Below are positions 10,353-57,803 of a stretch of 64,000 bases of DNA, piece after piece. A model generated the notes under the pieces. It had not been told where the DNA came from and ran no database searches. It saw only the letters and a list, made by a program, of their open reading frames with translations. The stretch lies in assembly GCA_030141605.1 (NCBI GenBank), contig JAQGDQ010000761.1, positions 1 to 64,000 of the forward strand, given 5' to 3'. The stretch is from Tubiluchus corallicola. Lineage: Eukaryota; Animalia; Priapulida. The position numbers were made by a program, and so were the translations under genes. The first letter of the stretch is position 1; the number at the start of each line of letters is the position of its first letter.

Positions 10353-10440
10353 CTGCAAGATATTTAAATAAGGTATTTGAGACTTTGATGATAAATTACC
10401 CTAGACCAGTTATAATATATTAGTTTTATTCCCACACAAA

Positions 10441-18436: not shown

Positions 18437-19050
18437 CTGCAAATGTTTGAATAAATCAACTTTATGCAGATTTCTCTCGGGTGACCTTATAAAACGTGTA
18501 AACTGGCCGTTTATGCGAAGCAACACATTAAAATTTCATTTACAGATATTCGAGAATGACAGAATGTGCATGTGGAATCTTAACACCAGGGATTTACTGT
18601 AAACTATAACTGTGATTAAAACACTAAACTCTATTTTATTAAAATATATACAACTCTATTGTAGTAAGTTTTGATTTTAATAAAACTATTAAATTAAAAG
18701 CCATGACGTCCAAACAGTCTCGTAAGCTCATTTTGCGTGGTCAATCGCGGTCAACAACAAAATTTAACAAACGCGTAATGTTATTTTGCTGTTTTGAATT
18801 AGCAAAATTACTACAAAATGGTTTAAATTAACAGCATCAAAACTTGATATTTTTCGAGGAACAGTTTTAGTGTCATAGTGAGCATAACCCGGTTTTATAT
18901 TTGCAATTTAAAATCGCCAGGTTCCTGAAAGAATTTCCAGGAATTTTCCAAAATTTTCTGAAAAATTTGGCATCTTTTGCAGACGAGAGGTCACACTGGT
19001 CAGATGACAATGGACATCATGAATGCAAAACTTACACTATCAGCTGCAAC

Positions 19051-19319
19051 TTGCGCTGTGATTCCTATCAGCAACAACCACTGCTGTTTCTCATCCGTAC
19101 GATAATTGATGATCTGACAACCCGCCAAACTGGAATGTCGATCGAACATTTTCACCGGCTGAGATTCGCCCTCCATCGACCAATGGTACACCGACGTTTC
19201 GGTTGCCATGGCGACCGTGTTCACGCTGATCCACTTCCAGAAGACGATTTCGTCGGACATGAGGTGAGCCTTCATTTTACTTTTCATTTCGATGTTGAAG
19301 ATTTGGAGTGTCTTCCCAG
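19051..19319 (-). CDS. CLTC: Clathrin heavy chain coding exon 3 ([15 protein letters not shown]...IGITAQ); an alternative donor extends it to 19036
   Basis: 269 nt, ttttcag|CT GGG...CAA|gttgca; a second in-frame donor AGT|gtaagt lies 15 nt further. Confidence 0.94.
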
Positions 19320-28190: not shown

Positions 28191-28699
28191 GGTTGGCATC
28201 CTTCTGTCTCAGAAGACAATGGAGTGTGCGCCAAGAAAGTCAGTTATTGATCACATTGATGGAGCTGCAGCGTCGACTGTGGCTGAGCAGTGCGATCTTT
28301 GAACGTCTCCAGGGCGCACGCCTGGGCATGGTGTATTGGAGATCCTGAGTTGCCCAGGCAACAGGAACCCCCTCTCTTCCTCCCTGGTGTAGTCCAAAGA
28401 AAAGCGGAGCGATACGTTTGGCACCAGGTTGGCTGTTGCAGCTGCCGGAGTCAGTGAGCATGCTGCACTGATCCGCCTTCGGGGCTCCACTCCTGATCTG
28501 GAAGGTTTACTCCTCTACATATGACCGTTGGGTCACTTGACCTCCTCCGCCCTCTGGGGGAGGCTGCTTGTGCAAGCTCCTCCGCCTACTGTCGAGATAC
28601 AGTGTGGGCATCCCGCAAGCCTACAGCACCTGGTATTCCTAGGCAGTCACCCATCCAAGTACTAACCAGGCTCTACGTTGCTTAACTTCGTTGATCAGA
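28191..28699 (-). mobile_element. 5S-SINE copy D (truncated within the 5S head) with 13-bp TSD
   Basis: Reverse complement of copy A from ~5S nt 40 to the tail; flanked by tgccatctgcact (28178-28190) and tgccacctgcact (28700-28712). Confidence 0.92.
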
Positions 28700-28762
28700 T
28701 GCCACCTGCACTAGACCTGCAAGTAATGAGTAACACATTCCTATTTACTCAAAATTAGTTAC

Positions 28763-28970
28763 CTTTCAACGCGATGACCTTGCTGGTGGGATTCATGATG
28801 GCCGAATCGGCAGTGATTGGTCGTCGGATGGGATTCTGCGGGTCGCTCATGTCCAAGATGACCACCTGAGACTGTTCCCCCACCTTCTCTCTGATGCAGA
28901 TGTACTTGTCCGACTCCATGGTCAGAGTGCTGAAGCCGATGTTAGCTGGGTTGATGCCCAGATTGGTTAG
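28763..28970 (-). CDS. CLTC: Clathrin heavy chain coding exon 2 ([22 protein letters not shown]...KVIALK); not in ORF track
   Basis: 208 nt, cattttag|CTA ACC AAT...AAA G|gtaact; translated by hand. Confidence 0.97.
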
Positions 28971-29027
28971 CTAAAATGAAAACAAATTAAAGTATATTAG
29001 CAAATGTCTAAAATGCCAAGTGAATAC

Positions 29028-29781
29028 AGAACAAGAAAGTCCCAAAGTGCATGGAACACTCTAGATATTTTTAATAAATTTGCTAAAGAATATGATATCC
29101 TTGTAAATGTGAATAAGACTAAACTTGTCACGTTTCGCTCCACCCACATGCAGCAGTTTACTTTTGGGTCTGTTGTTTTGCAGTGTAAAAGTTTTGTACC
29201 TAGTAAAAAGGAAAAATACCTGGGTCATATTTTATCAGATGACAATAGAGATGATTTAGATATATTACGACAATGTTCAATTTACTATGGTAGAGCAAAT
29301 AAATTACTCATGAAATTTACTCACTGTTCAGTTAACGTGAAGAGACAATTGTTTAATGCTTACTGCACTACTTTTTATTGTATGTCCACTTGGAGACATT
29401 TTTATTCTTACAATCTTAGCAAACTCAAAGTTGCATATAATGTATCAACACGGAAGCTGTTTAACTTTTCATATGATACGAGCGCCAGATATATTTCTAC
29501 TAGATGTAATATTATTTATTTTGATGCGATTCACAGAAAATGTGCATACAGTTCACTCGTCAGGCTGAATTAGAGTGAAAATTTTATATGCAAGAACATT
29601 TTAAACAGTGATGTAAACTTTACTTCTGTAATTAGACGTCATTGACATAGTTTGTTATATCGTTAATTGTTATTTGTGTTATTGTCGTGTGTCATAATTT
29701 ACTGTTTTATTTGTATTAATTTGTGATGTGTATATGAACTTTGTGAAGTTTGAAATAAAATATTAAATCAAAATCAAAATC
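29028..29781 (+). mobile_element. 5'-truncated LINE: RT C-terminal region plus 3' UTR (RTE-X/Proto2-like, tentative)
   Basis: ORF 29004-29573 has LxxFxKEYDIxVNxxKTK...KYLG...DDLDILRQ...RANKL...VKRQLFNAYC...W motifs typical of non-LTR RT C-termini; ends aataaaa-(aaatca)n. Confidence 0.8.
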
Positions 29782-29824: not shown

Positions 29825-32800
29825 GACACTGACTCATCCAAAGCTATCAAGATACGAACAAGATTCTTAATGAATTATGATGCTTCTTCAACACAGGGAG
29901 AATTTTTCCATCAAGTCAGATCATGCATAGCAGTATAGACACTGAATCATCCACTGCTATCAACATACGAACAAGATTCTTAATGAGTTATGATGCTTCT
30001 TCAACACAGGGAGAATTTTTCCATCAAGTCAGATCATGCATGCCAGTATAGAGACTGAATCATCCAAAGCTATCAAGATACGAACAAGATTCTTAATGAG
30101 TTATGATGCTTCTTCAACACAAGGAGAATTTTTCCATCAAGTCATACCATGCATACCAGTATAGAGACTGAATCATCCAATGCTATCAAGATACGAACAA
30201 GATTTTTAATGAATTATGATGCTTCTTCAACACAGGGAGAATTTTTTCATCAAGTCAGATCATGCATACCAGTATAGAGACTGAATCATCCAATGCTATC
30301 AAGATACGAACAAGACTTTTAATGAGTTATGATGCTTCTTCAACACAGGGAGAATTTTTCCATCAAGTCAGATCATGCATAGCAGTATAGACACTGAATC
30401 ATCCAATGCTATCAACATACGAACAAGATTCTTAATGAGTTATGATGCTTCTTCAACACAGGGAGAATTTTTCCATCAAGTCAGATCATGCATAGCAGTA
30501 TAGAGACTGAATCATCCAATGCTATCAAGATACGAACAAGATTCTTAATGAGTTATGATGCTTCTTCAACACAGGGAGAATTTTTCCATCAAGTCAGATC
30601 ATGCATACCAGTATAGACACTGAATCATCCAAAGCTATCAAGATACGAACAAGATTCTTAACGAGTTATGATGCTTCTTCAACACAAGGAGAATTTTTCC
30701 ATCAAGGCATGTCATGCATAGCAGTGTAGACACTGAATCATCCAATGCTATCAAGATACGAACAAGATTCTTAATGAATTATGATGCTTCTTCAACACAG
30801 GGAGAATTTTTCCATCAAGTCAGATCATGCATACCAGTATAGACACTGAATCATCCAAAGCTATCAAGATACGAACAAGATTCTTAATGAGCTATGATGC
30901 TTCTTCAACACAAGGAGAATTTTTCCATCAAGGCATGTCAGGCATACCAGTATAGACACTGAATCATCCAATGCTATCAAGATACGAACAAGATTCTTAA
31001 TGAGTTATGATGCTTCTTCAACACAGGGAGAATTTTTCCATCAAGTCAGATCATGCATAGCAGTATAGACACTGAATCATCCAAAGCTATCAAGATACGA
31101 ACAAGATTCTTAATGAATTATGATGCTTCTTCAACACAGGGAGAATTTTTCCATCAAGTCAGATCATGCATAGCAGTATAGACACTGAATCATCCACTGC
31201 TATCAACATACGAACAAGATTCTTAATGAGTTATGATGCTTCTTCAACACAGGGAGAATTTTTCCATCAAGTCAGATCATGCATGCCAGTATAGAGACTG
31301 AATCATCCAAAGCTATCAAGATACGAACAAGATTCTTAATGAGTTATGATGCTTCTTCAACACAAGGAGAATTTTTCCATCAAGTCATACCATGCATACC
31401 AGTATAGAGACTGAATCATCCAATGCTATCAAGATACGAACAAGATTTTTAATGAATTATGATGCTTCTTCAACACAGGGAGAATTTTTCCATCAAGTCA
31501 GATCATGCATACCAGTATAGACACTGAATCATCCAAAGCTATCAAGATACGAACAAGATTCTTAATGAGCTATGATGCTTCTTCAACACAAGGAGAATTT
31601 TTCCATCAAGGCATGTCAGGCATACCAGTATAGACACTGAATCATCCAATGCTATCAAGATACGAACAAGATTCTTAATGAGTTATGATGCTTCTTCAAC
31701 ACAGGGAGAATTTTTCCATCAAGTCAGATCATGCATACCAGTATAGACACTGAATCATCCAAAGCTATCAAGATACGAACAAGATTCTTAATGAGCTATG
31801 ATGCTTCTTCAACACAAGGAGAATTTTTCCATCAAGGCATGTCAGGTATACCAGTATAGACACTGAATCATCCAATGCTATCAAGATACGAACAAGATTC
31901 TTAATGAGTTATGATGCTTCTTCAACACAGGGAGAATTTTTCCATCAAGTCAGATCATGCATAGCAGTATAGACACTGAATCATCCAAAGCTATCAAGAT
32001 ACGAACAAGATTCTTAATGAGTTATGATGCTTCTTCAACACAAGGAGAATTTTTCCATCAAGTCAGATCATGCATACCAGTATAGAGACTGAATCATCCA
32101 AAGCTATCAAGATACGAACAAGATTCTTAATGAATTATGATGCTTCTTCAACACAGGGAGAATTTTTCCATCAAGTCAGATCATGCATAGCAGTATAGAC
32201 ACTGAATCATCCAATGCTATCAACATACGAACAAGATTCTTAATGAGTTATGATGCTTCTTCAACACAGGGAGAATTTTTCCATCAAACCAGATCATGCA
32301 TGCCAGTATAGAGACTGAATCATCCAAAGCTATCAAGATACGAACAAGATTCTTAATGAGTTATGATGTTTCTTCAACACAAGGAGAATTTTTCCATCAA
32401 GTCAGATCATGCATACCAGTATAGAGACTGAATCATCCAAAGTTATCAAGATACGAACAAGATTCTTAATGAATTATGATGCTTCTTCAACACAGGGAGA
32501 ATTTTTCCATCAAGTCAGATCATGCATAGCAGTATAGACACTGAATCATCCACTGCTATGAACATACGAACAAGATTCTTAATGAGTTATGATGCTTCTT
32601 CAACACAGGGAGAATTTTTCCATCAAGTCAGATCATGCATACCAGTATAGAGACTGAATCATCCAATGCTATCAAGATACGAACAAGATTCTTAATGAGT
32701 TATGATGCTTCTTCAACACAGGGAGAATTTTTCCATCAAGTCAGATCATGCATAGCAGTATAGACACTGAATCATCCAATGCTATCAAGATACGAACAAG

Positions 32801-33660
32801 ATTCTTAATGAATTATGATGCTTCTTCAACACAGGGAGAATTTTTCCATCAAGTCAGATCATGCATACCAGTATAGAGACTGAATCATCCAATGCTATCA
32901 AGATACGAACAAGATTCTTAATGAGTTATGATGCTTCTTCAACACAGGGAGAATTTTTCCATCAAGTCAGATCATGCATAGCAGTATAGACACTGAATCA
33001 TCCACTGCTATCAACATACGAACAAGATTCTTAATGAGTTATGATGCTTCTTCAACACAGGGAGAATTTTTCCATCAAGTCAGATCATGCATAGCAGTAT
33101 AGACACTGAATCATCCAATGTTATAACATACGAACAAGATTCTTAATGAGTTATGATGCTTCTTCAACACAGGGAGAATTTTTCCATCAAGTCAGATCAT
33201 GCATACCAGTATAGAGACTGAATCATCCAATGCTATCAAGATACGAACAAGATTCTTAATGAGTTATGATGCTTCTTCAACACAGGGAGAATTTTTCCAT
33301 CAAGTCAGATCATGCATACCAGTATAGAGACTGAATCATCCAATGCTATCAAGATACGAACAAGATTCTTAATGAGTTATGATGCTTCTTCAACACAGGG
33401 AGAATTTTTCCATCAAGGCATGTCATGCATACCAGTATAGACACTGAATCATCCAATGCTATCAAGATACGAACAAGATTCTTAAAGAATTATGATGCTT
33501 CTTCAACACAGGGAGAATTTTTCCATCAAGGCATGTCATGCATAGCAGTATAGACACTGAATCATCCAATGCTATCAAGATACGAACAAGATTCTTAATG
33601 AATTATGATGCTTCTTCAACACAGGAAGAATTTTTCCATCATCATGCCAGGTCATGCATG
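29825..33660. repeat. 113-bp satellite array (~34 copies)
   Basis: actgaat recurs at 29941, 30054 and 30167 (period 113); unit gacactgaatcatccaa(a/t)gctatcaagatacgaacaag...catgcat(a/c)cagtata. Confidence 0.97.
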
Positions 33661-35579
33661 ACATGATGGATATTAAATCATCACATGTCATCTAAATACA
33701 AACAAGGTTATTTAATTTGAGATGTGATGCTTCTTCAGTACAAGGAGAATTTTTGTACCAAGCCAGGTCACGTATGCCAGTATGGACACTAAGCACAACC
33801 AACATGAAGTGAACGTCGATAATGGGTAACCGGGAGTCTATTTGGTCAGCAAACACAGCGACATGTAAAATCAAATCTCAAAGGAAAGTGGTTTCAATAG
33901 CATATATCCTCTCTTGCTGAGAAGAATCTGAAGCCTTTTACAAATTACTTCAAGTGCGAGTTACTGTTAGATCAAAGAAAGTGGCTTCGAAGTCACCCGG
34001 CTTCTAAAAGACTTTTCAGTAAAATTCTTTATGGACTTTGTGTTTTGCAAGTGAAGATCACGATGTACTTGTTATAAGATTTCAATGTTACAAAACTTTC
34101 AAGCTTATGTACTCAAGCTTGCATTATGTACTTTTCTATATTGGACTGTTGTCCGCTTTTAACGGAGGCAGGGCGGATGGCGCCACGGCCCACACCGTGC
34201 GGCATGTCCCAATTAAGTCATTCACGCCTCACCCAAAACAAAACCCGAACAATAGAGTTGCAATGATAATTTTATTACTACATATCACACCCCCAATAAG
34301 GAACAAACAGCTTACCTAGAAGAACGGAGTTTGCGGCAAAGCCTGTGAAATGTGAACAGAGCTGCAATGAAAGACACGACCTTTGACAAGGGTCTACAGC
34401 AGACCTTCTCTTTTTATAAGCTCAGGTGTGCACGTGACTAGTGGCTTAAGGCCACGTTTCCCCTGCCAGTATTACATTTCATTCCACCACAGCCCTGTAG
34501 TACAATATTATATCATGTACTGCACTTTAATTTGAAAATGTTTTTCTACCAGGTCTTTGCTATGATGAATACACAATTACGTAAGCTATGACGTTGATCC
34601 TATATGCTGCATCTAAATGTTTTTGTTTATCGTACTTTCAAGATCACTTGATTTTTTGATTTCTTAACAAAAAGGGTTTGAGTTATTGTTTACACGTTAC
34701 GTTACCTATTAACAAACTATGTACGATTAGATAGAGAATTTCACAGGCTTTCTAACCGTGTATTACACGACTAAATTCGCTGAAGTACAGCAACGAAAAT
34801 GGGTTTTTGGACTCCGGAGGAAGTATCGTTGCAAGTCCGAATATGGCGATTTTACAACTAGGGTTTGAGTTATTTTTTACACGTTACGTTACTTTTGAAC
34901 AAACCATGTATGGTTAGGTATAGAATTTCACGCGCCTTCTAACCGTGTATTACACGACTACATTTGCTTAAGTACTGCGTTCGTAATGGCGGTTGAATGT
35001 ACGAATCCGTGTTTGTGGATTCCGGAGGAAGTATCGTTGCAAATCTGAATATGTCGATCTAACCCTATACCATGAAATACATATTAAAGAATTACAATGA
35101 AAAAGTGTATATTTATCACTTACATTGATAAAAGTATATTTATCTATTGAAATTACAACACACACGTACGAGCAGGAAAAATTGCACAACATAAAGATTT
35201 CATTTATCAAATTTTCTATGCAAATTTGAATTTTATTACTTCATTTCACGAGATATTTTGACAGGTTAGACAAAATTGCCAAAAACATCTTGTAACACTT
35301 AAAAAGCAATGCATAAACTCAGGAAAAAAATCTGTTTGAAATAAATGGCTCTCCGAAGATTTAAAGAATATCTCTACTGCACATATCTCTACAGATTTTT
35401 CCTGGATTTGTCTCCAAAATTCAAGAATCAAAAAACCCTAATGGATCTCGCGTGATTATAAATCTAAGCCACGTTAGGGACAGCAGCTGAAAATGACAAA
35501 TTAAGCAACGCATTTGAATTGAAATATCATGAAATACCAGGAATAATGTTTTGTTTTTGGCATTTAAGCCATCTGATAT

Positions 35580-42105: not shown

Positions 42106-44756
42106 TAAGCTTTAAACCACTGAAGGTCACTCATCAAGTATAATCCTAATCTAGTACGTAGCCTGAAAACTATGGTTACCCAGTATAATACACGTCAGAT
42201 AATGCTTGCATAAAAACCTTTTACCGTGTAGAGGAAACCATGTTTGTTTCACCTTCAGGTATAGGTCATAACGGTTACACAGAATTTCACATGTCTGGTA
42301 ACATAGCGCAGAGATTTCAACTCTCCAGCTTCTAATCCAACACAATCATTACACGCTCTTTCCAACAAACCACAAATCACGCGTCAAGAACTCGTTGAAA
42401 ACACAAGCGAGTCGAAAACGCTCTAAATCAAATCTGCTTTGTACGCATGTCAAGCATTCGCGCATGCGCACTGCTGTCTGTGAATATGAAAACCATGTGT
42501 AAGACTGCACTACTATGAAACTACCACTACAATTACTTAAAAATCCCAAATTAATGCCAGCACTTGGAAATACAAACTTTCATTCTCACGTAAAAGTATA
42601 TTTAAACACATCAGACATATTTGTTATCCACTTCAGCATGAAAAAAATGACAATATAATTTAGCTATTATTCCAGAACGATTATGTACAATGCAATTAGA
42701 GATACAAAATGCCTTGCAAATAAACGACACAATTCTTCAGCTACCAGAAATAGGTGCTGCATAGCGGTTACGAAACTAGGCTTGTAAACCCGCCATGAAA
42801 ATTGGGAAAAAGTTGATGAGTTCTTAAAAGAGAAGGAATTTATAGAAAAATAGAGATTGACAATGACAGAGTAATAGGCCAAGGATGGAGAAAAAGGGAA
42901 GATAAGCGAAATGGAAAGGAGTTGAGCAGAGATATAGGATGTAAAAGCATTAAAATATGATCAGTAAAGTAACCAGTCGCGGGATGTACTATAACTATTG
43001 TAGTTCATAATAAAACTCAAAAAATGTGTTGTAAATACGATTATAATAAGGGAGATTTCATATATATTTTGAAGCTATATAATGTTCGCTGTGTGGTAGT
43101 ATGTGTTGATATTCCTAGATTTGAAACAAAGTGTCTAGCAACACTGGTCCTGTAAAATGGAATATTATATTCATTAAAACTTGTGACGTGTCTCTATGAT
43201 TACGTACGACAGCTCTTGTCGGATGACTACTTGTTTTTGTTTTCGATAGATGGCGCCATTGTTTTGCGGCATTGTGTGTACGTACTACATCAGTAATGTC
43301 ATCTTTTTTTATAAAAGCACTACAGTATTTATGGTTACGTACGACAGGATTTAAAAAAACGGGTTTTCGTCTAATTTTACCGGTAAAGTTACAAAACTGA
43401 GATGGTCAAAGCCACTGAAAATAGCTCATAATAAGTATCAATGAATACCGAAATTTTAGTGACTGTACCAGTACTACAGCGCAGAGCTTAGGAGTTACTT
43501 ATTTGACCTAATTAACTCTGCTAAAATTTTCGTTAAATGCACGCTATTCAAAATTAAACGTGGCTAGCCAATTATTATCATTGGATGTCGCTAGTAATGT
43601 CCAGGCTTTATTAGCACACACTAATTAATGATATAAGATAATAGTGCACGAAGCTATTAATTACCGGCAGCTTCCGAAAGTCCACAAGAAGATGCGTCGT
43701 TTGCACCTCATTACTTTCAAGTCAACATGTAGATTAATGACTGTAAAACTTCACATCATATCCATAGAACTAATACGGGTAATGATGACACAGTAAACAT
43801 GACACTACGTGGGACGTTCACGCTTGCTCGACATTTGTGTACTGCATTTCTGTGTGCGTCGGCACAGCCTTCTTAACTACAATTGTCAGATGGCGTGTGT
43901 GGATCCAGCAACTCAGTTCAGTAACTTCAGTTGTGGTGCCATTTCCTCGTTGTTTTACGTGGACTTTACTCAATTATGCATCAGTTTATCCGTAAAGTAA
44001 TCTACTAGCAGGATCTTGCTTGGGAACAAGAAAAAATGAACTAGGTAAGGTTCTAGGTAACTGTTAAAACATTTTCCTATTACAATAGCATGGGCTGTGA
44101 GGCGTTGTCAGGTGTACAGAAATACGTCATCTGGTACACTTAATCGTTGACCTTTTCACGATCATCGTCAATCGCTACAACAGTGAAAAGTTGTCTATTA
44201 CTGAAACAAGTGTGTTATCTAATAACACAGCACAATAACAAATGAATGGAGCAATCACAGTTAAGCAAACGTAATTCACACTCAACGTACAGTAAGTGCA
44301 AGAACTGAACTTTTTGTTAACGTCCCAATAAATCACTTTTATGATGAAGACACCTCACTCGTGTACAGGGGAAAAGTTTGATAAGCAAACCGAGCATCAT
44401 ATTTTCACATGACAGTGATGACAGCACATTGCCTATTACCCTAGGTAATCCTCACTCATAATGAATGTCTTCTAGTAAATGTCAAAGCAATAAAGGGTTC
44501 ACCCAGTCTAGTAACTGCATTGTTATTACAGATTTTATAGGTAATTATGCAATATCAATGATTTTTAATCCATGTCCATTTTACATCCTTTTAGAGATTG
44601 ATTTAGTTGCAAATTAGGGGCAATTCTGCATATCATCTTTTTTATAGTAGAATATACTGTCACAAGGCCCAAAATTGGAATTTTATTTATAATTTGCTAT
44701 TAGGACCACAAAAAACAGGTGACATCGAGAGAAAGAACAAAGATACAGAGGGGAAA

Positions 44757-45181: not shown

Positions 45182-48100
45182 CTACTCTTCCATAACATGC
45201 AATATTGTCTGAAATAACTCTGTAGTACAGATAGTTTTCAACACGGCTCTCATATTGTCATCAAATGGAACAGATTTCAACGTATTTGTGATCAAAACTA
45301 GCAGTCCCTCTGCAGCCGAAAGAGGAGGAACCAGGCTGCCAATCCTGCACAAATGGCACACAAGCTGGCTTTTGACAAACACGTTCATTTCATTCATTTC
45401 TGTTAGAAGCTGAGAATTTATCGTGGCAATTAAACTGCTAAGAAAGTATTGCCACATTTCAGCTTGTCCAAATAAATCAGTTTTGTGCAAGCTAAGCACC
45501 TGAACAACATCTCCTAATGTTTGTATAGTGACCAACAAAGGAAGTGTGGCATTTAGGTCTTCGGGTAGAAACTTGTGCGTAAATGTTGACCTGTATGGAA
45601 AGCTTGACTGCGATGATTTTAACAAGTTGAGCACGCCGGTGACCACACGATTCCATTGGCTGGGCAAGCAAGATGGTAAGACCATGGTCAAAGACAGAAC
45701 AAACTCGGAATAATCAATGCCTTCAGTTAAATGCAGATTCTCGCACAAATGATGCAGTTTACGCGGACAAGATCGTAGAAAAGTCCACAAATGCGACATG
45801 TGATGAGCGCCATAACTCACGTCAACATCAGCAAAATCAAAGTGCTCCTCTAACTGCGATACCATCACTCTTAAGCAGTTTGGCAGTCGTATCCTGTATT
45901 GCAGACGTGGATGAGAACAACAAAAATTGTGGAGAAGCAGCTGCGTAGAAAAATCATACTGCTGAAGGTATTCAAAACACCAAATGAGTTGCACTTCTGA
46001 AAAACTTGTTATTGCTGCCGTGCAAACTCCCTCAATCAAGGTGATCACGTCAGATAAAGATTCCTTCATGGAAAAGTACAGGCTTGGCTCATTTAGAATT
46101 GAATCAGTTGCGTCATACATGTTGCAGAGATGCAAAAGAAGAGGCAGAGGATTGCAAGAAAGAAGCCAGTGAGAATCAACATGACTTTTTTGCTTCCTCC
46201 AACCGGATAAACTCGCCTTTAGCAACTCCAGGCTGTGTTCACACTGCCGAGATCTGATGCTCAGATTAGGTAAAATAAACCTTGTGATAAGTACAGGATA
46301 AGAAATCAATTGGTCCATTAAAAACGGACATTGCGGATCTACATGGCTGCAATAATCACTTAGTAATTTCTCAAACAATTTCAAGAAATTTTGTTTCTGC
46401 AAAGAACTGAGTTTCCTGCTGCAATCCAAGAGAGCTTGAACCACCAAACTGTTGCCACCTTCTGTCTCCATGGTGGCAGCACAGCCGAGACTTTGCAAAA
46501 GTTCGGAAATTAGTTGTGTAAAGCCGGCATTGCAGACAGCATGATTCACAGCACTACAGATCACTGCAGCTGGATTCTGCAAGCATAACAAATGCACATC
46601 CTCAAATAGTGTCAACTGTGTCAACTTGTTGTCATCAACACTGGCAGAAAGTTTGTTGAAGAATAATGTCCTCTTTTGATTGAAATCAGCTTGTGCTAAC
46701 CAGTCACTACTGCCGTACATTTTGAGGCTGTGTTCTAACAACCTGTTCTTAGCGTAGAGAGGTGAAACGTCATAAGCACAAAGAAGAAGGTGCTTATGTC
46801 GCTCCGACAAACAGTCGCTCTCATTCATAGTCCAGAACGTGTGTAAGAGCAACTTCATATTACTTGTGCTGGCAACTACATCAACGGTTGCTTCTAGAAT
46901 GTTTAAGCAGTGCACAGCATTTAACAAATCTACGTCCGTAATGATTCTAGTTACGTTTCTTTCATAACCAGATAACCGCTCACGGATTCTAAAAAGAGCA
47001 TCATCTAATGAGAACGCATCTGTTTCGTTTCCTGCATCCACAGTTTCAACTGCAACTTCAATACCGTTTTTCTCAAAGAAGTACCAACATTGCGAAATGA
47101 TCTCTTGTATTTTGATTTGGATCTCCATAACTACGTTCTCATTTTTTGCTACAGCATCAAGAGCATGGATCAGTTTCCTCACAATCCTGCTGATCTTTCC
47201 AATATCTTTTACACTGTCTAACAGGTTTGCTTCGCACAGAAGATAATGCACGAGTTTAAGTAATGAAGATAAATCAACAACATTTCGGGCATTCTTCATT
47301 TTCTGCTCAGAAACATTTGACTTTAGCTGGCGTACACGGGCAGCCACTGTAAAAAGCTGCTTCTCTGGGTCGTCCAAATGAAAATCAGCATCAAAAACGT
47401 TCCGCAGTTGGTGACATCTGTCGAGCACAACTTGCGAGGAAGATGTAAGCAGATCTGAATCAGAAAACTCAGCAGCAGTAACAAACAGAGACAACTTAGA
47501 AATTGCCAGACTTAACAGCTCTGCTGCAGCATCAACACTGGCATTCACTGCACTGCGAGCTTCAAAACGTTGCACTAATACTGTTAGCAGGTCAGAAAAA
47601 TTGCGAGAAGTATCTGCTTTTATAATTTCAGTTTCACTAGCATTTAAATTTTCCATTTCAGCAAATGGCAAAGTTTGGACTGTGGTAACATTTAACAAAC
47701 TGCAAATAAGTTGTCCCAAAAAATTGGTACTTGTAATCATCTCGCTCCTTGATGCAAAATAATGATCTAATTCCGAGATAACTGCTGACCTAATTAAAGC
47801 AGACACATCCAGCAAACACTCCAACAACAAATGCACCCAGTCACATCGATGCACTATCTCAAAATAAAACGAGCTGCTAAACTTTGGCATGTTTCTATTA
47901 AACTTTTCACAGAATACCTCATTAGCAAGGTGATCGAAGGTTTTGTAGAAGAGAAGCGAATGCAGTTGAAAGGCAAGAAAACGAGATTTTTCCTCTCCTA
48001 TGTCTTCTTCTAGTCCTCTGCATATCTCTTTAATGCTGTCAACAACAACTTTAACAGCATCTTGAAAGTTGACATTGCCAATCTTTGCAGTTCCGCCACC

Positions 48101-48232
48101 TTCATCTTCAGTATAATCGTCCTCAGCTTCCAAAGTGGGTTTTACGAGCGAATAAGCATAGTGAACTGCGCAGTCAAAAACAGCAAGCTCGGGTGTATGC
48201 AGTTTCAGCCTTTGTATGGGAGCCCATGTGTG
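45182..48232 (-). CDS. GEMIN4: GEMIN4-like protein (SMN complex component), single long terminal exon nested in CLTC intron 1
   Basis: Frame open for 1016 codons from an acceptor at 48233/34. Motifs match human GEMIN4 as recalled: HLLLCAYDVSPLYAKNRLL~HLILECYADLSLPGKNKVL; WLLSCNPLPLLLHLC~WLQTCSPFPLLFSLC; FVLSLTMVLPSCLPSQWNR~FLVALVQVMPWCSPQEWQR. Human GEMIN4 is likewise mostly one large exon. Confidence 0.85.
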   Translation of the reverse strand, partial: HTWAPIQRLKLHTPELAVFDCAVHYAYSLVKPTLEAEDDYTEDEGGGTAKIGNVNFQDAVKVVVDSIKEICRGLEEDIGEEKSRFLAFQLHSLLFYKTFDHLANEVFCEKFNRNMPKFSSSFYFEIVHRCDWVHLLLECLLDVSALIRSAVISELDHYFASRSEMITSTNFLGQLICSLLNVTTVQTLPFAEMENLNASETEIIKADTSRNFSDLLTVLVQRFEARSAVNASVDAAAELLSLAISKLSLFVTAAEFSDSDLLTSSSQVVLDRCHQLRNVFDADFHLDDPEKQLFTVAARVRQLKSNVSEQKMKNARNVVDLSSLLKLVHYLLCEANLLDSVKDIGKISRIVRKLIHALDAVAKNENVVMEIQIKIQEIISQCWYFFEKNGIEVAVETVDAGNETDAFSLDDALFRIRERLSGYERNVTRIITDVDLLNAVHCLNILEATVDVVASTSNMKLLLHTFWTMNESDCLSERHKHLLLCAYDVSPLYAKNRLLEHSLKMYGSSDWLAQADFNQKRTLFFNKLSASVDDNKLTQLTLFEDVHLLCLQNPAAVICSAVNHAVCNAGFTQLISELLQSLGCAATMETEGGNSLVVQALLDCSRKLSSLQKQNFLKLFEKLLSDYCSHVDPQCPFLMDQLISYPVLITRFILPNLSIRSRQCEHSLELLKASLSGWRKQKSHVDSHWLLSCNPLPLLLHLCNMYDATDSILNEPSLYFSMKESLSDVITLIEGVCTAAITSFSEVQLIWCFEYLQQYDFSTQLLLHNFCCSHPRLQYRIRLPNCLRVMVSQLEEHFDFADVDVSYGAHHMSHLWTFLRSCPRKLHHLCENLHLTEGIDYSEFVLSLTMVLPSCLPSQWNRVVTGVLNLLKSSQSSFPYRSTFTHKFLPEDLNATLPLLVTIQTLGDVVQVLSLHKTDLFGQAEMWQYFLSSLIATINSQLLTEMNEMNVFVKSQLVCHLCRIGSLVPPLSAAEGLLVLITNTLKSVPFDDNMRAVLKTICTTELFQTILHVMEE

Positions 48233-50396
48233 CTAAAAATAAGCGGGAGTTTGTAAGGAAAAACGAAAAAAAAATCAAAATGCGGAGTTGAATACTTATA
48301 TTTAAGTACAATAAAATGCATTGAAGGAAAGGACAAGTCATTTACCATGTTGGATTTATTTTACTATTATCACTTGAATTTAGGAAAATATGAAAAAGAA
48401 TTTTGCAAAAAAGCAGTCTATAAAGCATATAGTTAGTCATGCTACTACTGTACGATTTTCAGGTGCGATGCTAGATGACATTTGCTTGAAAATTATGACA
48501 CAACTAGGTGGATTTCGTGACTTTTCTTCAGTACACTATGGCTTTCCGTAAGCGAGCGCTACTTAAATTAATCCAAATTTCTGCAGCTTACCTAATGTTC
48601 AAGCAAAAATATCATAACATTAGATAATATTTTGTAAAACTTATTATACTTTTGATGGAAATTGACAGTGCACGGTTTTCCTTCAGTCGGTGAATGTCAG
48701 GCCAGTCACAAAAAAAGTTTCTGTCCTACCTCATGAGCTCAAAAGATGTCAGTAGGGAAAGGAGGAAATTTTTTTCAAAATAATTTTTTTATTTAAAGTT
48801 TTGTGAATGTTTATAGCTGAATTGTGGAACATTTAAAATCAAGGTTTGTTTATTTCCCACTGGTCATAATTAGCAGTAATGTTTTAAATTTTTTTCAATG
48901 AACATTCTTTCACGCTTTGTTTTTTAGTTTTTAGTTACGCATCACTAAATTATTGTATAATTATCGATTATCGTATAGTCTCCTTTTTGAACGTCATGAT
49001 GTTCTGGTAACTTTGGCACAATTGAAATCAAAGTTTGTTTATTTCCCACTGGTTAGCAGTAATGTCTTAAATTTTTTCAATAAACATTTTTTCACGCTTT
49101 CTTTTTTAGTTTCGCATTACTAAATTATCGTACAGTTATCATTTGTTTGTAACTGATATGTATGTTCTGATAATAATGGTATCATGGCATCAACACTACT
49201 CAGCCGTTAATACACTGATTTGGCAGAAAATACGATGCATTTTAGCCTCCAATACAATGAGCATCACTCAAAAGGACAACCCTGGCTGAGAGTTAGCCGC
49301 AGAAAAACATGGTTGTGACCACGCCGAAACAACAGTGTTACAATAATTATTGCGTTGTAAGTTTTAAACTAAAAAAATATGCTTTTATATGACTGCGTCA
49401 GGTAAGTATATGAATGTAGAAAACTTTTATAAAATTCCTGGCATGGTGTGCGATAAAAAAAATGTTACCCAGGCGAATAGACAGAAACAGAAGTATTTTT
49501 ATTGTTGGCCTCACTGGTGATAGAATGGGCGTTCAATATGAGAGCACCTAGGCATGGATGATCACAACTTTAAAGTGATTTTACTACTTATCCAAATCAC
49601 CTATCACACTTTTTGCGAAAATTTAAAAAAGCCTAGATTCCCGGAAGACTTGGCCTGTCGTTTAAAACTCATTTTATAAAACAGTCTCGACAGATACACT
49701 CAAACTTCTTTATACCACCTACAATGGAACTGCAAAGCATTGGTATTACAGCGAGTTTAGCATTATAATAGGGGTTGTTAATGCATACATGTCTACGCAA
49801 ATATAGACATTTTGTTTTGATAAAAATCTGGGCATTAAATGAGATCGGCATTATGACGAGGTTTGTCTGTATTAAAATGAATCTCAGTTCTAGCACGTCT
49901 TTCCATGTATGAAAACAAAATAAAATTAAAATGAAATTGCTGGTTAGACAAGAAACAAAGCAATCACCAGCACCGAGGCTGACTCTAAAACTCAAAACTT
50001 TTCAGATGTATACATTGAATGCGTGCCACGCGGAAAAGAACACAAGTACTAAAAACGGTAAGCATCAGGTGCACGCTGCACAGTAATCATCGCATTAAAT
50101 CTGATAATCATTATATGCAATTAGAAGAACTCAGCTTGCTAATGATTATTGTGTTAGTAAACAGTTGTACAAATTATAGTTATTATTCTTGGATTTGTCG
50201 CACGCTCTAAATTTTAAAACAGCTACAGGTTCTACATGGCATGGTCACTGCAGCACAGGGCCACATATACGCAGCTTGATGATACAAGCCTATATACATA
50301 ACAACGGAAGTCAAAGAATTGAGAAATAAATAAACATTCCTAATATTTTACCCATCAAGCAAATCCCGATGGCTAATTAATTAACTTTTAATACTA

Positions 50397-50843
50397 CCGT
50401 ATTTTCCCGTGTATAAGAGACCCTTTTTTTGCTCAGAATTTTCACTTTAAAAATAGGGGGTCTCTTATACATGGGAGTAAGTCTTTTCAATAAGATGCAT
50501 AAATTGTTACACTAATGATTTTAAAGAAATAAGTGCTCTACAACTGTTTTGCGTGTCGCGTTCGACTATGAAGCGGTTGTAAGCAATACAAGCATCGTGA
50601 CACAGGCATTATCTCCTCGTTTTCTCTTTTCCTGTTACAGGTTTGCAGGTAATATATACCAGTACTCTTTTTCTACAACACATTAACTGGTTTTATTTTG
50701 TTTTCAGTACCGCACTGAGTTGAAAAAAGTTGTACTTTACCCTCTAAAAATGTCCGTCTGAAAAAACTTTTTTCCAGAATTTTTGCCTAAAAATTGAAGG
50801 GGTCTCTTATACACAAGGGTCTCTTATACACGGGAAAATACGG
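50397..50843. mobile_element. Tc1/mariner (Tc2/pogo-like) MITE
   Basis: Perfect 27-bp TIR CCGTATTTTCCCGTGTATAAGAGACCC, TA on both sides. Confidence 0.92.
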
Positions 50844-53586
50844 TAAATTAATTAACAACTAGAAATCTGTTTGTAGTAAAAACTTTTTTAAATAGCACTA
50901 ATCACCTAAGAATACTAGATGTAACAGTAATTATAATTTTGCTGTGCTAGCAGAGCAGGTTTGCCTGTATTCAAGACTGTAGTGACACCTAGCTGGGAAA
51001 AAGAGAATCTTCTTAGTAACAGTCTCTGAATATCCTATATACCTGTAAGCAAGTAAGAACTTTTCAGTTCTAGGTTTTGGGCTATTCTCCACAGAATGTA
51101 CAATTTTCATCCCGTCATACATTTTTTTAAACATCAAAAGTTCTGGTACAATACTGACTGCCAGCTTTACTTCTCTAGAGTAAATAAGAAATGACCTTTT
51201 TTGGGCGTATTGCAATAAATTACGCTACACTCTTTACTTGTATTCTTGCAACATGGGAAATCCTTTTGCCTTACCCGTTTTTTTCTGGTGATTAGACAAG
51301 CCATGACACATGATGTTGCGACTTATCTACATTACTTTTAATGATATTCGTAGTCTACAGATGCTTTCCTAGATACAGCTCTACATTTGTTTATTTAGGA
51401 CGACAACGGTTTCAAGCATTGAGTGTTTTTGTACTCATTTCAGCAGAGCAGATTCGATTTAATTTGGCCATGACGAATTACACATATGCCATTCAAAGTA
51501 AGCAAAATAAAATACGCATAAAATTGCTGTAAAGTGATATAATTTTATCAGGCGATTTCTCTGAAGCGTACTTTAGGTACCCCTTTTCTCCTCCTTTAAG
51601 AAGAAGCATTTAATCTTGAGTTAATATCTAAGATGTTCCTCAATGGAAAGGTGCTGTGTCACCTTCTACATCTTCAAGTACATCATCAATTTTTGATTCT
51701 AACAAGAAATGGAAAAAGTTCTGAAAAACACATTAAATGTGAAGTATTTCAATGACTAAAACATTCAAAATTTGTTGATACCGCGTGATAACCTTTAAGT
51801 TAGTCTGCTTTGTGCTTATCTTTTATTAGATTTCTTCATTTTTATGTGAATTGCATAGTTCTTTAATTCTATATATTCTCAAAATACAATTTTTGATTGT
51901 AATGCATGTTTTAATAGGCTCGATCTTTGCGACGCTAGTCTACAAACTCATCAAATGGCAAGATGAAAACATACATAAGAATCGAGGCATAAGGTAGTTG
52001 CAGACAAACAACACACAGCATACAAAATTAAACATGTAAGGTGCTGGTTATAACGTAAGAGCAACTACACAGTTTTATGGATAAAGAACATAGTATGTAA
52101 CATCTACAGTATCTCCCCATAGTGAGTAAGGGCATTTAGTCACATAATATTATATGTCTGTCTGCACAATACAATTAATAATATGCAAAAGCATAATCAT
52201 CAACTGTGGTAAAGGGATAAGCCTGAACAAGACCTGGAAACCCTTTGGCTTTGGTTTCAAAAGTTGAAAAGTCAAGGACACAAGGTCAAGAAATGCATTA
52301 ACATCAAAGTACACAATGTTCAGATCACCAAACTTGGCAAGGGATACATAGGTGTTGACAAAAAAACCCTTGGCTTTTGGTTTGAACAGGTCAAGAGTCG
52401 AGGTCACCAAAGTCAAAAAATGTTAAAATGTCAAATAAATTTTTGCCCGTAGCGACTCCATATGGAGGCGTGACCTACTAGGTCTGCACCCCAATAGAGT
52501 GCCCTTTTATTACCAATATGATTACTCAAGTAGAGAAGCTCAAGTACTAGGATGTCCCGAAGCCAGTGGCTGTTGTTCTGGTAATGGGAATTTGCTTGAT
52601 CAATATAAGCCGGTGACAGGGGAATACTGTTCAATATCACTGTACAGTCATGTACAGCTCACAAGCCCACAGTGCAGTATTGACGTAAGATACCATCTGA
52701 TGATCGTACACATTTCAAAATTCTAATAATTCTGCACGTTGTAAAATAAATATATACATATAAAAAATACAACTGTACGTTGTAAAATAATAACATGTAA
52801 AAATATTCAAAAGAAATCAAGATGCCCAGAAAAACCCTACCCTCTAGTGGAACTAAGAAGTGTGTGTTCTCTATTCCAGATAGCTGTCTAATCATTGAGT
52901 GCAGTGATGGCTCTATGGTTGCGTCATAGAGAGATTTCATGTTTTCACACTTCAAATTTTATGTCCAAGTTCTGTTACTGATGAAGAAAATTTTTTAATA
53001 AAAACGCTGTGACTGTCAGAGGCAGCTAGGCCTAGATTCTAGGCCTTCAAATACCATACGTAATTTCAGAACATTAAAAAAATCTGGATTTCTTATTGGC
53101 TATTGCTAACCAAAAACTATTGGCAATTCAGAATTTCCACAAATAATAACCATTGCTGTGCTTAATTACTGGCTGCAAGTGAGACATACAGGCACATGTA
53201 TACAATATGTACTTAGTTGTTATAGAAAGTCAAAATTAATCGTTTTAATCCCATGACGAAAAACCTAAAATAATGTTGACACAACAATAAACAACTTTTC
53301 AGTAAACCAATCTCAACACAATTAACTGAAACCGGGAAGGATAGTGGCTTAAGAATCATTTTTATGATATTTTAACGTACTTATCAACAAATTTGTTACT
53401 TCTATGGATTTCCATGTGTAGTGACAGCCAGTTACAGATATTGCAACATTGCTATTGCAAATTTTCAAGCTAACCATGTCAAGTTCTGCTCTGTACGATA
53501 AATGCATCACAAAATGAGTTTGAAAAATTCGATCTACAGGAACTTTCAGAATTCAGATGGCATTCAGCAATGCAGAAGGCTGCTGC

Positions 53587-53951
53587 TGTTGTGTTTTGTT
53601 TCTCGTGGAAGGCTCGTAGAGAAAACCAGAAAACACTTCATCAAATTAAACTAGTTTATTAAGCGAGAATTCTACAACACAAAAGTATGAAGGAACGCGA
53701 AATGATTACACTAAACGTGAAAATCTGGAAAATGTTTAAGTGTATTTGAAATTACAAGTATACAAGAGAATGTGTAAGTGTACGTCTGTGCGAAATCTGC
53801 ATGCGTCTGTCAGCAGCCTGCTTCGCCTTATATAGCGTGCCTGAGAAGCTTCTAGAAGTTCCTTTCCAGAACGTTGTACACGGTAAGACGATTAATCTAA
53901 TGGAACATTCTACATATTTAATTCTAATAGATGCCAGCGATCTTCACAACA
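53587..53951 (-). mobile_element. Solo LTR (365 bp)
   Basis: TGTTGTG...CACAACA termini, 5-bp TSD gctgc (53582-86, 53952-56); minus-strand TATATAAG (~53827-34) upstream of AATAAA (53655-60). Confidence 0.88.
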
Positions 53952-55507
53952 GCTGCAGAAGACACAAACAATGAGAAAACTGTTAAACCTTTTTTTACAC
54001 AAGTCCAATGTGGATCCAAGTCTGTGAAGACTTCAGATAGAGTGGTTGTCTAGCAGAGTTAGTTATAACTGACCAACATAATACACTCATATCTCGGTTT
54101 GTTGGACCTCACTTTTACGGATGTCAGAAAATTCGGACAAAATCTGGTCCGTTAAAAAGACCACGTACTACAGACACAGTCCGTTATTTTGCGAGCTCAC
54201 CGCTAGTTGGCAGGCTGTTACTTTGTTTACATCCAAGCAGCATGTAACAGCACGTGTCTAGGGTGTTTAGTGGTTTAATCAGCGTGCGTAAGTGGTTTAG
54301 AGTCAATCATGCGAAGTTATTTAAATCAATTGCCGACAGTTTTTATATACTTTTGCACAGAGCGGGCCGTACCAGACGTTTTTGAGACAATAAGGCAATT
54401 GATTCTCCATTACCCTGAGTCTAATACAAGCCTACTGTATTAGTTTAGTATCGGAAAATATGGACAAGCGGCAAATTCGGACTGGACCCACAACCGAGTT
54501 GAGTGAATATGGGTTCTTCCTTACCGTATTATTACCATAGATCAACAGGGCGAAGCCTGTATGTATGCATTTTGCACATAGTTTTCTCTCTCATTAATCA
54601 TTGTTTCACACGCTCTCTCTCACATTTTATATTTGTTTTCTCTCAAAAGTTGTCGGTCTAGTGAAGTGCCACCTAGCGGCAGTGGTCATGGTATGGTGAG
54701 GAAGCAAGGCCAGTGGTCGTATGATGGAAGCGTCACTCAATGTATGTTTATGAAACGTTTGTATGACGGTTGCAGAAAGGTTGGATTTTTAAAAGTCATT
54801 TAGATTCCATTGAAGCTGGATGGGTTCCAAACCATAAGATAATGCCATTGGTTCATGCACAAAGTAAGAGCAAACTGCAAACATGCACCCTTGAGCAAAT
54901 ACACGATTTGAAATTTCGACAACTGTGAGATTACGTGCACTCAGTCAATGTGAGACTGCTATGCTGAAGTCGGACTACTGCTTCTTCTTTGTGGTAAGAC
55001 GTTAACTTCACCGAATTGAAGGCTCTGGCACATGCTGTTAGAGTTAATAATAGCATAATACATTTAGTAGGGCTAGCTGGCCTAATGCCATGGTAAATAT
55101 AACTCCACAAATTTTCTCACAAACAAAACAGATAGGTGTTAGTACAAACGGAGTATACATGCAGTCACCTGAGTAAGCCACCTCTATTAGAACTTACATG
55201 ATTTAGTTATAGAGCAATTACTATTCAAGTTATTATTCAATATGAATATGGTGTCTTCATAGATATAGGCATAGACATGTTTTATTCTATAGAGTAATGT
55301 AACAGTGAAGTAACAACATACCTTCCCAGGGATTATCTCATTGAATTACTGATTTCAAATATAATTACAGTTATCTACAATTTTTATAAAATATGTACAA
55401 CTACAAGTAAAATTTGGCAGATGGCCAAAAAACTCTCATTCATGACTATGACTCACAGGTTTCTCACAATTTAACCCCAATATCTTTCACAATTCAGTAT
55501 ATCTTAC

Positions 55508-55549
55508 CTGCAAGTGCTCTTGAAAACGAATTGGAAATTGTTGAGACAT
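55508..55549 (-). CDS. CLTC: Clathrin heavy chain coding exon 1 (MSQQFPIRFQEHLQ); not in ORF track
   Basis: accATG TCT CAA CAA TTT CCA ATT CGT TTT CAA GAG CAC TTG CAG|gtaaga; 42 nt, phase 0; matches the CHC N-terminus MAQILPIRFQEHLQ. Confidence 0.96.
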
Positions 55550-55976
55550 GGTGACAGGTCTTCTTTTCTGTCAATAACAAATTAATAAATCACAAAATTG
55601 AATATATCTGCCGGCTTTAAGAAACTCCGCCAGCACGCAAAATTTTAATATGGCAGCAGCTGGCGGGAGAAAAGTAGTCCGTCATTAAATGACTTGACGA
55701 AATGTTGAATTGTGCTAAAATCTCTAAAGTTCACTTTACTTTCAATGTTGCTTAAATTTTCGCGGTATTTGGTAGAACATTTTTTAACTTCACATGCCTA
55801 GAATTATTAAAATGAACATATACTTCTGCTCTATTTCCCTACCATTAGTTTTGTTTTCCGCCGCTAGATGACAACGTGTGTGAAATTCCTGAAGCCAAAA
55901 TCTTTGCTGTAGATACAGTAAACGCGTAGTAGTGAGTAGACGCCAAGTGTAGTTTTAATGTCTTAATTAATAAATA
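55550..55976. promoter_or_regulatory. Putative bidirectional promoter and 5' UTRs of CLTC and IFT20
   Basis: Only 427 bp separate the divergent ATGs; YY1-like aatatggcagc (~55647) and E2F-like tggcggga (~55661). Transcription starts were not determined. Confidence 0.65.
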
Positions 55977-56097: not shown

Positions 56098-56965
56098 GTA
56101 CTAGTTTTTGTTCTAGCTTTGCTTCCTCTAACACTGGTATATTCTGATCATTATATTTGGCATTTCTTCCCATTTTTTGTGAAAACACTAACAAAGTAAT
56201 TATTCAATAATTCTGCTTTTTCTTTGTCATTCACCGTCAGTTGTTTTCACTGTCATCTTACTCCTAGCATATTTGTAGAACAGCTTTGGATTTCGTTTGA
56301 CATTTGGTGCTACTGCTGCTTCACTTTCCGTACTTCATCTTTACATTGGTTCCTTATTTTAGCATAGTTCTTTTATTCTTCAGAATGTGATTTGTTGATT
56401 TTATCCCTTATGTTACTCCCAAGTGACTGAAAAAAATGTTCTATGGGCTAACTTTTTCATATATATGCGATCTTAATATCATTCATCCATCAATATTTAA
56501 TCAATTAAATCGTCTTCCATTATCAATTATCAATGCTTTATCAGTTGACATTCTCAAAAGGCATTTGAGAGAGGACAGTTTACAGATGGTTACCGTCTAG
56601 ATCCTTATTTCTTTGGATAAGGATAAGGTATCAATAGCTGACTGAATATGATAATAATAAAAACAAAAACTTTAAAATCCATAACATGTCACAAGTAAAT
56701 TATGCAGCACTTCACTTTTTCTGTCGCTTTTTACTAACCAATCTTTTGTTTGACCCTTTGAGTTTTAGCTTCAAAGAGCAGATGATTTTTCCATGTATCA
56801 GTGGACTTCGATAAGCTTATACTTCGTACATCCACTGCATACTAATTATTGACCTTAATTAAACATAACAGCAGTCAGCAGTATGTGACATATTGCTCTA
56901 CTAGTACTAGACATCTACTAGGTGTAGTCTTTCTTGTAATGTGTGTGTAATAGCATCATTGTACT

Positions 56966-57803
56966 GTGTAAAAATAAATTACCGCACTATTGTAATACTG
57001 CAAAGTGCGGCAAGCATCCTTATACTATGTGTAAAAATAAATTACTGCACTATTGTAATACTGCAAAGTGTAGCAAGTGTGTTTATACTGTGTAAAAATA
57101 AATTACCGCACTATTGTAATACTGCAAAGTGCAGCAAGTGTCCTTATACTGTGCAAAAATAAATTACTGCACTATTGTAATACTGCAAAGTGTAGCAAGT
57201 GTGTTTATACTGTGTAAAAATAAATTACCGCACTATTGTAATACTGCAAAGTGCGGCAAGCATCCTTATACTATGTGTAAAAATAAATTACTGCACTATT
57301 GTAATACTGCAAAGTGTAGCAAGTGTGTTTATACTATGTAAAAATAAATTACCACACTTGTAATACTGCAAAGTGCAGCAAGTGTCCTTATACTGTGCAA
57401 AAATAAATTACTGCACTATTGTAATACTGCAAAGTGTAGCAAGTGTGTTTATACTGTGTAAAAATAAATTACCGCACTATTGTAATACTGCAAAGTGCAG
57501 CAAGTGTCCTTATACTGTGCAAAAATAAATTACTGCACTATTGTAATACTGCAAAGTGTAGCAAGTGTGTTTATACTGTGTAAAAATAAATTACCGCACT
57601 ATTGTAATACTGCAAAGTGCAGCAAGTGTCCTTATACTGTGCAAAAATAAATTACTGCACTATTGTAATACTGCAAAGTGTAGCAAGTATGTTTATACTG
57701 TGTAAAAATAAATTACCGCACTATTGTAATACTGTATAGTGCAACAAGTGTCCTTATACTGTGTAAAAATAAATTACCGCACTATTGTAATACTGCAAAG
57801 TGC
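56966..57803. repeat. 61-bp minisatellite (~14 copies) with alternating A/B units
   Basis: Unit tgt/gcaaaaataaattac(c/t)gcactattgtaatactgcaaagtg(c/t)agcaagtgt(cc/gt)ttatactg. Confidence 0.95.

What the first reader, a model, noticed from the sequence alone, without database searches (positions are those of the whole stretch)
45182..55549. GEMIN4 probably borrows clathrin heavy chain exon 1: two unrelated proteins from one promoter and start codon
Seen: the GEMIN4-like frame lies on the same strand inside CLTC intron 1. It stays open 33 codons upstream of the track's TTG 'start', back to a strong acceptor (long pyrimidine tract, atttttAG|CAC ACA TGG at 48232) in phase 0. The first in-frame ATG is 114 codons in (47890), after sequence that resembles the GEMIN4 N-terminus; the earlier ATG near 48227 is out of frame. 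CLTC exon 1 ends in phase 0, so splicing 55508->48232 gives MSQQFPIRFQEHLQ-HTWAPIQRLKLH..., 1030 aa, close to human GEMIN4 length. Inference: alternative terminal-exon choice switches the locus between clathrin and an snRNP-assembly factor, which could make GEMIN4 output respond to splicing or U1 capacity. I know of no description of this arrangement, but I could not exclude a private first exon.
Basis: partly seen in the sequence, partly recalled or inferred. Interest (0 to 1): 0.9.

Follow-up and report, generated by a model that had tools for sequence, protein, structure and literature searches.

The report
GEMIN4 borrows clathrin's first exon
An intron-free gene for the spliceosome-assembly helper GEMIN4, which has lost its own start codon, sits inside the first intron of the clathrin heavy chain gene and likely uses clathrin's promoter and first 14 codons; this is a known kind of gene sharing, and no RNA has yet shown the splice.

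Summary
The layout is confirmed. A 1016-codon open frame (48232-45182, minus strand) lies on the same strand inside the 26.5-kb first intron of clathrin heavy chain (CLTC). It is GEMIN4: its best hits are named GEMIN4 proteins. The conserved N-terminal motif is at codons 11-18, but the codon where homologues have their start Met is AAA. The first in-frame ATG (codon 115) would cut off conserved sequence. The frame starts at an acceptor as strong as real CLTC acceptors (rank 15 of 1353 intronic AGs), in phase 0 like CLTC exon 1, giving 1030 aa if joined.

The splice itself is untested: no RNA run was listed, no genome is held, and no close relative was found. Rivals are a private coding exon, a decaying copy (DNA differences show no purifying signal) and a one-base assembly error hiding an ATG. 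The layout is not pan-animal: 0 of 15 homologues carry the clathrin peptide, and 0 of 45 complete CLTC first introns hold such an exon.

This kind is known (Su(var)3-9/eIF2gamma; 10 pairs and a triplet in FlyBase), and this scan noted similar cases with other genes on other DNA. The U1 feedback idea has no support. New member of a known kind.

The parts
55508..55549 (-). CLTC first coding exon, 14 codons, phase-0 end; the likely shared exon
   Evidence: the same exon end followed by GT in 78 of 117 pattern loci
55502..55507 (-). 5' splice donor GTAAGA of CLTC intron 1
   Evidence: highest leave-one-out score of 12 CLTC donors
48233..48292 (-). Pyrimidine tract and AG acceptor opening the GEMIN4 frame; 60 nt free of AG
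   Evidence: score 7.3 vs 0.6-8.5 for 13 real CLTC acceptors; rank 15 of 1353 AGs in intron 1
45182..48232 (-). Intronless GEMIN4 coding exon, 1016 codons plus stop, no start codon at its conserved N-terminus
48179..48205 (-). Conserved GEMIN4 N-terminal motif (codons 11-18); codon 10 (AAA) stands where homologues have the start Met
   Evidence: rank 1 of about 1000 positions against the N-termini of 7 invertebrate homologues
48225..48227 (-). Out-of-frame ATG (17-codon frame); basis of the assembly-error rival
47888..47890 (-). First in-frame ATG (codon 115), downstream of conserved sequence
44682..44687 (-). First AATAAA after the GEMIN4 stop, candidate poly(A) signal (use not shown)
28763..28970 (-). 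CLTC exon 2, the competing downstream acceptor
51275..51304 (-). Best-scoring of four chance-level candidates for a private phase-0 coding exon; lies in a high-copy repeat bin

Best explanation
An intronless GEMIN4 coding exon without its own start codon lies on the same strand in CLTC intron 1 and is likely spliced to CLTC exon 1 as an alternative last exon. One promoter and one ATG would then give two mRNAs. Exon 1 to 48232, ending near 44687, would give a 1030-aa GEMIN4 with a 14-residue clathrin leader. Exon 1 to 28970 gives clathrin heavy chain. The origin is inferred: GEMIN4 was inserted into the intron, a phase-0 acceptor upstream came into use, and its own ATG was then lost without cost. 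GEMIN4 would be a minor product drawing on a strong housekeeping promoter, as proposed for Su(var)3-9. Shown: layout, identity, lost Met, acceptor quality, phase match. Inferred: the splice, the poly(A) site, the history.
For: GEMIN4 identity: 13 phmmer hits at E<=0.001 (best 1e-18), with names gem-associated protein 4 in Glandiceps, Branchiostoma, Amia, Latimeria and Albula. Residues 1-114 are conserved: 26.7 bits against a profile built without the window, best of 500 shuffles 1.9. The N-terminal motif maps to codons 11-18, rank 1 of about 1000, with AAA at the Met position. 7 of 15 homologues begin with Met directly at this motif and an eighth has it after an 8-residue extension. The acceptor scores above 10 of 13 real CLTC acceptors and is in the top 1.1% of intronic AGs. 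Both sides are phase 0. Model residues 1-12 have pLDDT under 50, so an extension there is plausibly tolerated. Much of the 7.3 kb upstream is high-copy repeat. Precedent: PMC1435931, PMC4528330.
Against: No read or contig shows the junction. 0 of 15 homologues carry the clathrin peptide. 0 of 45 complete CLTC first introns (33 distinct exon-1 sequences, exon-2 motif within 2.9 kb) hold a long frame, and all 25 spliced clathrin loci go to exon 2, so there is no comparative support; none of these is a close relative. Four candidate private exons exist, and mouse GEMIN4 does use a private 3-codon first exon (PMC5861365). Differences in DNA run X1 are 11 non-synonymous to 3 synonymous codons, no sign of purifying selection. 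Phase 0 is the commonest phase here (13 of 14 CLTC junctions), so the phase match is weak evidence.
Confidence: 0.63

Rival explanations
1. GEMIN4 is an ordinary nested gene with its own promoter and a short private coding first exon (phase 0) inside 48233-55507, like the vertebrate two-exon layout.
For: Mouse Gemin4 has one intron and a first exon of three codons (PMC5861365 passages). Four ATG-to-donor phase-0 candidates score above threshold, the best at 51304-51275. Same-strand nesting is about as common as opposite-strand nesting in mammals (PMC11694760 passages).
Against: Four candidates is chance level: 0-9 in nine control stretches of the same size. All four fall in 370-nt bins with repeat-level depth in X1 (65-10972 against 7-25 in the ORF contigs). 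The invertebrate homologues begin directly at the motif. Even with a private exon, the CLTC donor could still reach this acceptor in frame.
Confidence: 0.17
2. The frame is a recently released or decaying GEMIN4 copy, with the working gene elsewhere in the genome (like the Su(var)3-9 remnant in aphids).
For: X1 contigs differ at 11 non-synonymous and 3 synonymous codons (15 and 3 nucleotides; 1634 and 460 sites). This fits neutrality; p=0.037 under omega 0.3, or 0.20 if the 3 unlisted differences are synonymous. No start codon. No genome is held to look for a second copy.
Against: 1016 codons without a stop. No gap in three X1 contigs over about 2.1 kb of the frame. Conservation from motif to C-terminus. 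7 of the 11 changes fall at residues 282-379, a poorly aligned, low-confidence stretch. Small sample.
Confidence: 0.09
3. A one-base assembly error hides an in-frame start: the ATG at 48227, five bases after the acceptor, is the true start behind a non-coding first exon.
For: The ATG lies just upstream of the motif, and short homopolymers follow it. One base fewer within 48224-48174 opens the frame. X1 has no cover at 48059-48310, so this could not be checked.
Against: 5,469 coding bases in this window (CLTC and GEMIN4) show no other frameshift, which bounds the chance of such an error in the relevant 27 nt at about 1.5%. The Met position itself is AAA.
Confidence: 0.07
4. Translation starts at a near-cognate CTG (codon 9 or 11) or at Met115 on an mRNA with a non-coding leader.
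For: CTG codons flank the ancestral Met position.
Against: An out-of-frame ATG at 48227 lies upstream. Met115 would drop three predicted helices and sequence scoring 26.7 bits against the family. Any mRNA carrying CLTC exon 1 already has an in-frame ATG.
Confidence: 0.04

Closest known systems
Su(var)3-9 / eIF2gamma fused locus of insects (Krauss et al. 2006, PMC1435931; abstract and sections 3, 6, 8 read)
   Same: One large intronless exon of an unrelated gene inside a conserved intron of a housekeeping gene; shared promoter, start codon and N-terminal residues through alternative 3' splicing; proposed origin by insertion plus a cryptic acceptor.
   Different: There the shared part is 79-84 residues, the mRNAs are shown, and the fusion spans eight insect orders. 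Here it is 14 residues in intron 1, the splice is only predicted, and it is seen in one genome.
FlyBase 'Genes with CDS overlap' (10 pairs and one triplet; PMC4528330 section 8 read)
   Same: Functionally distinct genes sharing promoter, first exon and translation start, with a short in-frame N-terminal overlap.
   Different: Those are annotated from transcripts. The list (File S2) was not read, so I cannot say from it which genes take part.
CPNE1 / RBM12 promoter sharing (PMC2568002; abstract and outline only)
   Same: Two different genes made from one promoter and the same 5' exons.
   Different: Only the 5' UTR is shared and the coding sequences are wholly different; here the start codon would be borrowed.
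Vertebrate GEMIN4 (PMC5861365; passages)
   Same: Same protein family; nearly all coding sequence in one large exon behind a tiny first coding exon.
   Different: The mouse first exon is GEMIN4's own and encodes three residues; here the only evident candidate belongs to clathrin.

Membership tests
GEMIN4 | Sequence homology over the length to named GEMIN4 proteins | tested here: met
   13 hits at E<=0.001, best 1.1e-18; names; 259.7 bits over residues 54-980 against a 9-sequence profile without the window
GEMIN4 | About 1,000-1,100 aa, all-helical, with the conserved N-terminal motif | tested here: met
   1016 codons (1030 if joined); all-helical model, mean pLDDT 68, pTM 0.51; motif rank 1
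GEMIN4 | Binds GEMIN3 in the SMN complex | not tested
   No partner sequence from this organism is held
GEMIN4 | Curated family model match | tested here: inconclusive
   No Pfam match under E 0.1, no PDB sequence match; atlas hits were unrelated helical families below the recognition threshold. Whether Pfam holds a GEMIN4 model was not checked.
Shared-first-coding-exon gene pairs (Su(var)3-9/eIF2gamma type) | Unrelated coding exon on the same strand inside a host intron | tested here: met
Shared-first-coding-exon gene pairs (Su(var)3-9/eIF2gamma type) | Acceptor in phase with the host exon; no usable start of its own | tested here: met
   the assembly-error caveat is bounded at about 1.5%
Shared-first-coding-exon gene pairs (Su(var)3-9/eIF2gamma type) | mRNAs of both genes carry the same 5' exon | not testable with these tools
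   No RNA holder listed; X1 behaves as DNA; X2 gave only short repeat pieces
Shared-first-coding-exon gene pairs (Su(var)3-9/eIF2gamma type) | Nested exon is the genome's only copy of the gene | not testable with these tools
   No whole genome held
Shared-first-coding-exon gene pairs (Su(var)3-9/eIF2gamma type) | Arrangement conserved in related species | tested here: inconclusive
   Absent from distant animals; no close relative found (GEMIN4 best identity 37%; CLTC exon 2 at most 90%; empty)

The most novel reading that the evidence does not exclude
The choice between the GEMIN4 last exon and clathrin exon 2 senses snRNP supply: when snRNPs run low, more transcripts take the nearer acceptor and poly(A) site and make more GEMIN4, a feedback loop for spliceosome assembly built into the clathrin gene.
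Probability: 0.05. Interest if true: 0.75.

Novelty: new member of a known kind. Interest (0 to 1): 0.36.

Why it matters
If the splice is real, an snRNP-assembly gene that is essential in mice and flies (PMC5861365, PMC6385987) depends on the clathrin promoter and start codon. That adds an independent case to a small class of accidental gene fusions and shows how an inserted gene can lose its own start. It also matters for annotation: gene finders will truncate this GEMIN4 or list it as a clathrin isoform, and knocking out CLTC exon 1 would remove both proteins. The principle is not new, and the regulatory twist has no support.

Tried and rejected
RNA evidence: no RNA holder listed. X1 covers introns and repeats, so it is a DNA run. 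It has no cover over exon 1 or 48059-48310 and shows no 55508-48232 joint among the 15 of 60 joints displayed; that is uninformative in DNA. X2 gave 7 short repeat pieces.

Homologue searches: word-index searches with the frame and with the alignment gave nothing. The metagenome scan with the frame gave 27 pattern matches, none confirmed. A search for fusion proteins with the exon-1 peptide could not be run, so it stays open whether any database protein joins the two. The CLTC exon 2 search found no close relative among the 120 of 851 hits listed.

Lack of AATAAA inside the frame looked like support but is not: p=0.27 in synonymous shuffles. Pfam, PDB and atlas searches were uninformative. Rfam found nothing at the locus. 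No look-alike in earlier scan notes by place or sequence. No complex prediction or fold search was run, as neither bears on the splice.
Full report
Layout. On the minus strand, CLTC begins with a 42-nt coding exon at 55549-55508 followed by GTAAGA. Exon 2 starts at 28970. Fourteen exons join to 806 open codons, with 707 of 801 aligned residues identical and no gap against a fetched clathrin; named clathrins match exon 2. Inside the 26.5-kb intron 1, a 1016-codon frame runs from 48232 to 45182 on the same strand. It opens directly after ATTTTTAG. Joined to exon 1 it gives 1030 residues with one stop. The first AATAAA after the stop is at 44687.

Identity. phmmer over 1.84 billion representatives gave 13 hits at E<=0.001. 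Of these 13, five carry a GEMIN4 name themselves (Glandiceps, Branchiostoma, Amia, Latimeria, Albula), a sixth clusters with a named Ptychodera GEMIN4, four are uncharacterised animal proteins and three are unnamed. A profile from nine homologues, without the window, scores the frame at 259.7 bits. The model is all-helical, mean pLDDT 68. Pfam, PDB, atlas and two word-index searches gave nothing useful.

The missing start. Residues 1-114 score 26.7 bits against that profile (aligned part 54-105; best of 500 shuffles 1.9), so Met115 is too late. The N-terminal blocks of seven invertebrate homologues match best at codon 11, rank 1 of about 1000 for three block lengths, which puts their Met on codon 10, AAA here. 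Seven of 15 homologues start directly at this motif, one after eight extra residues; four are fish proteins with short leaders, and three are fragments or unclear. The frame therefore needs an upstream coding exon, or an unusual start.

The acceptor. In a small model trained on 13 CLTC acceptors, 48232 scores 7.3, above 10 of the 13 leave-one-out scores. It ranks 15 of 1353 AGs in intron 1 and has 60 nt free of AG upstream. Finding such a site in frame ten codons before the motif argues that it is used. It needs a phase-0 donor, and CLTC exon 1 has one. This match is weak evidence, since 13 of 14 CLTC junctions here are phase 0.

The splice was not observed. No RNA holder was listed. Run X1 covers introns and repeats like DNA and has no cover at exon 1 or at 48059-48310. 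No genome is held. No close relative was found: best GEMIN4 identity 37%, CLTC exon 2 at most 90%, metagenome scan empty.

Comparative test. 78 are genomic with GT at the same place, 25 are spliced to clathrin exon 2 (24 by rule, L019 by eye), 14 are chance matches; none has a GEMIN4 hit. In 45 of the 78 (33 distinct exon-1 sequences) the whole intron is visible, the exon-2 motif lies within 2.9 kb, and the longest same-strand frame is 100 codons. None of 15 homologues carries the clathrin peptide. The intron position is widely shared, but the arrangement is restricted to this lineage at most.

Rivals. Private exon: four ATG-to-donor candidates, the same as chance (0-9 in nine controls), all in repeat-depth bins; but mouse GEMIN4 does use a private three-codon exon (PMC5861365, passages). 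Assembly error: one base fewer would put the ATG at 48227 in frame; 5,469 coding bases without another frameshift bound this near 1.5%. Decay: X1 differs at 11 non-synonymous and 3 synonymous codons among 18 listed base differences, with 3 more unlisted. This fits neutrality, with p=0.037-0.20 under omega 0.3. It counts against strong constraint, though 7 of the 11 changes fall in a variable, low-confidence stretch and no frame break appears in about 2.1 kb covered.

Mechanism. Most likely (0.63) GEMIN4 is an alternative last exon of the CLTC unit. The splice, the poly(A) site and the insertion history are inferred. Residues 1-12 are low-confidence in the model, so a 14-residue leader is plausibly harmless. 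The U1 idea is unsupported: 11 AATAAA lie between exon 1 and the acceptor, so low U1 could cut both products. In flies, larval death from Gemin4 loss was not put down to snRNP loss (PMC6385987, passages).

What is known. Su(var)3-9/eIF2gamma is the same design: one large exon in a host intron, shared promoter and 79-84 N-terminal residues (PMC1435931; abstract and sections 3, 6, 8). FlyBase lists 10 pairs and a triplet with shared start (PMC4528330 section 8; its File S2 not read). CPNE1/RBM12 share only UTR exons (PMC2568002, abstract). Passages of PMC11694760 and PMC8527503 were seen. The clathrin/GEMIN4 pairing did not appear in searches (12 listed four papers, judged unrelated from titles and abstract openings; the others none); searches were seen as listings. 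Subscription papers are not covered. Earlier notes of this scan report the same design with other gene pairs in other genomes; these are unchecked and were used only as leads.

Verdict. Real layout, probable shared first coding exon, RNA proof missing. New member of a known kind; interest 0.36.

Noticed in passing
window 19036-19051 (-): CLTC exon 3 has a weak donor at the conserved end (GTTGCA, lowest score of 12) and a consensus GTAAGT 15 nt further on, in frame; using it would add five residues. Both keep the frame open.
   Followed up: partly
window 55567-55600 (-): An acceptor-like T-rich stretch ending in AG lies about 17 nt upstream of the CLTC ATG, so the first coding exon may have a non-coding exon before it.
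   Followed up: no
window 46238-46291 and 47165-47203: X1 differences in GEMIN4 cluster, and four codons carry two changes each.
   Followed up: partly
window 50395-50845: A 451-nt element with perfect 31-nt terminal inverted repeats and very high depth in X1, MITE-like.
   Followed up: no
window 29825-33790, 14648-15828, 56962-57803: Long tandem arrays: 113 nt x 35, 43 nt x 27.5 and 61 nt x 14; the first two lie in CLTC introns, the third upstream of exon 1.
   Followed up: no
window 28618-28724 (-): A 5S rRNA-like sequence just above Rfam's threshold (40.1 vs 38 bits), about 40 nt into CLTC intron 2.
   Followed up: no
window 29001-29573 (+): A 190-codon frame that by eye resembles the end of a LINE reverse transcriptase, next to the exon 2 acceptor (label recalled, not searched).
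   Followed up: no
P0007 (Priapulus caudatus model): This GEMIN4-like model is only 410 aa and matches residues 404-533, so it appears to lack the family's N-terminal motif; its locus could not be read here.
   Followed up: no
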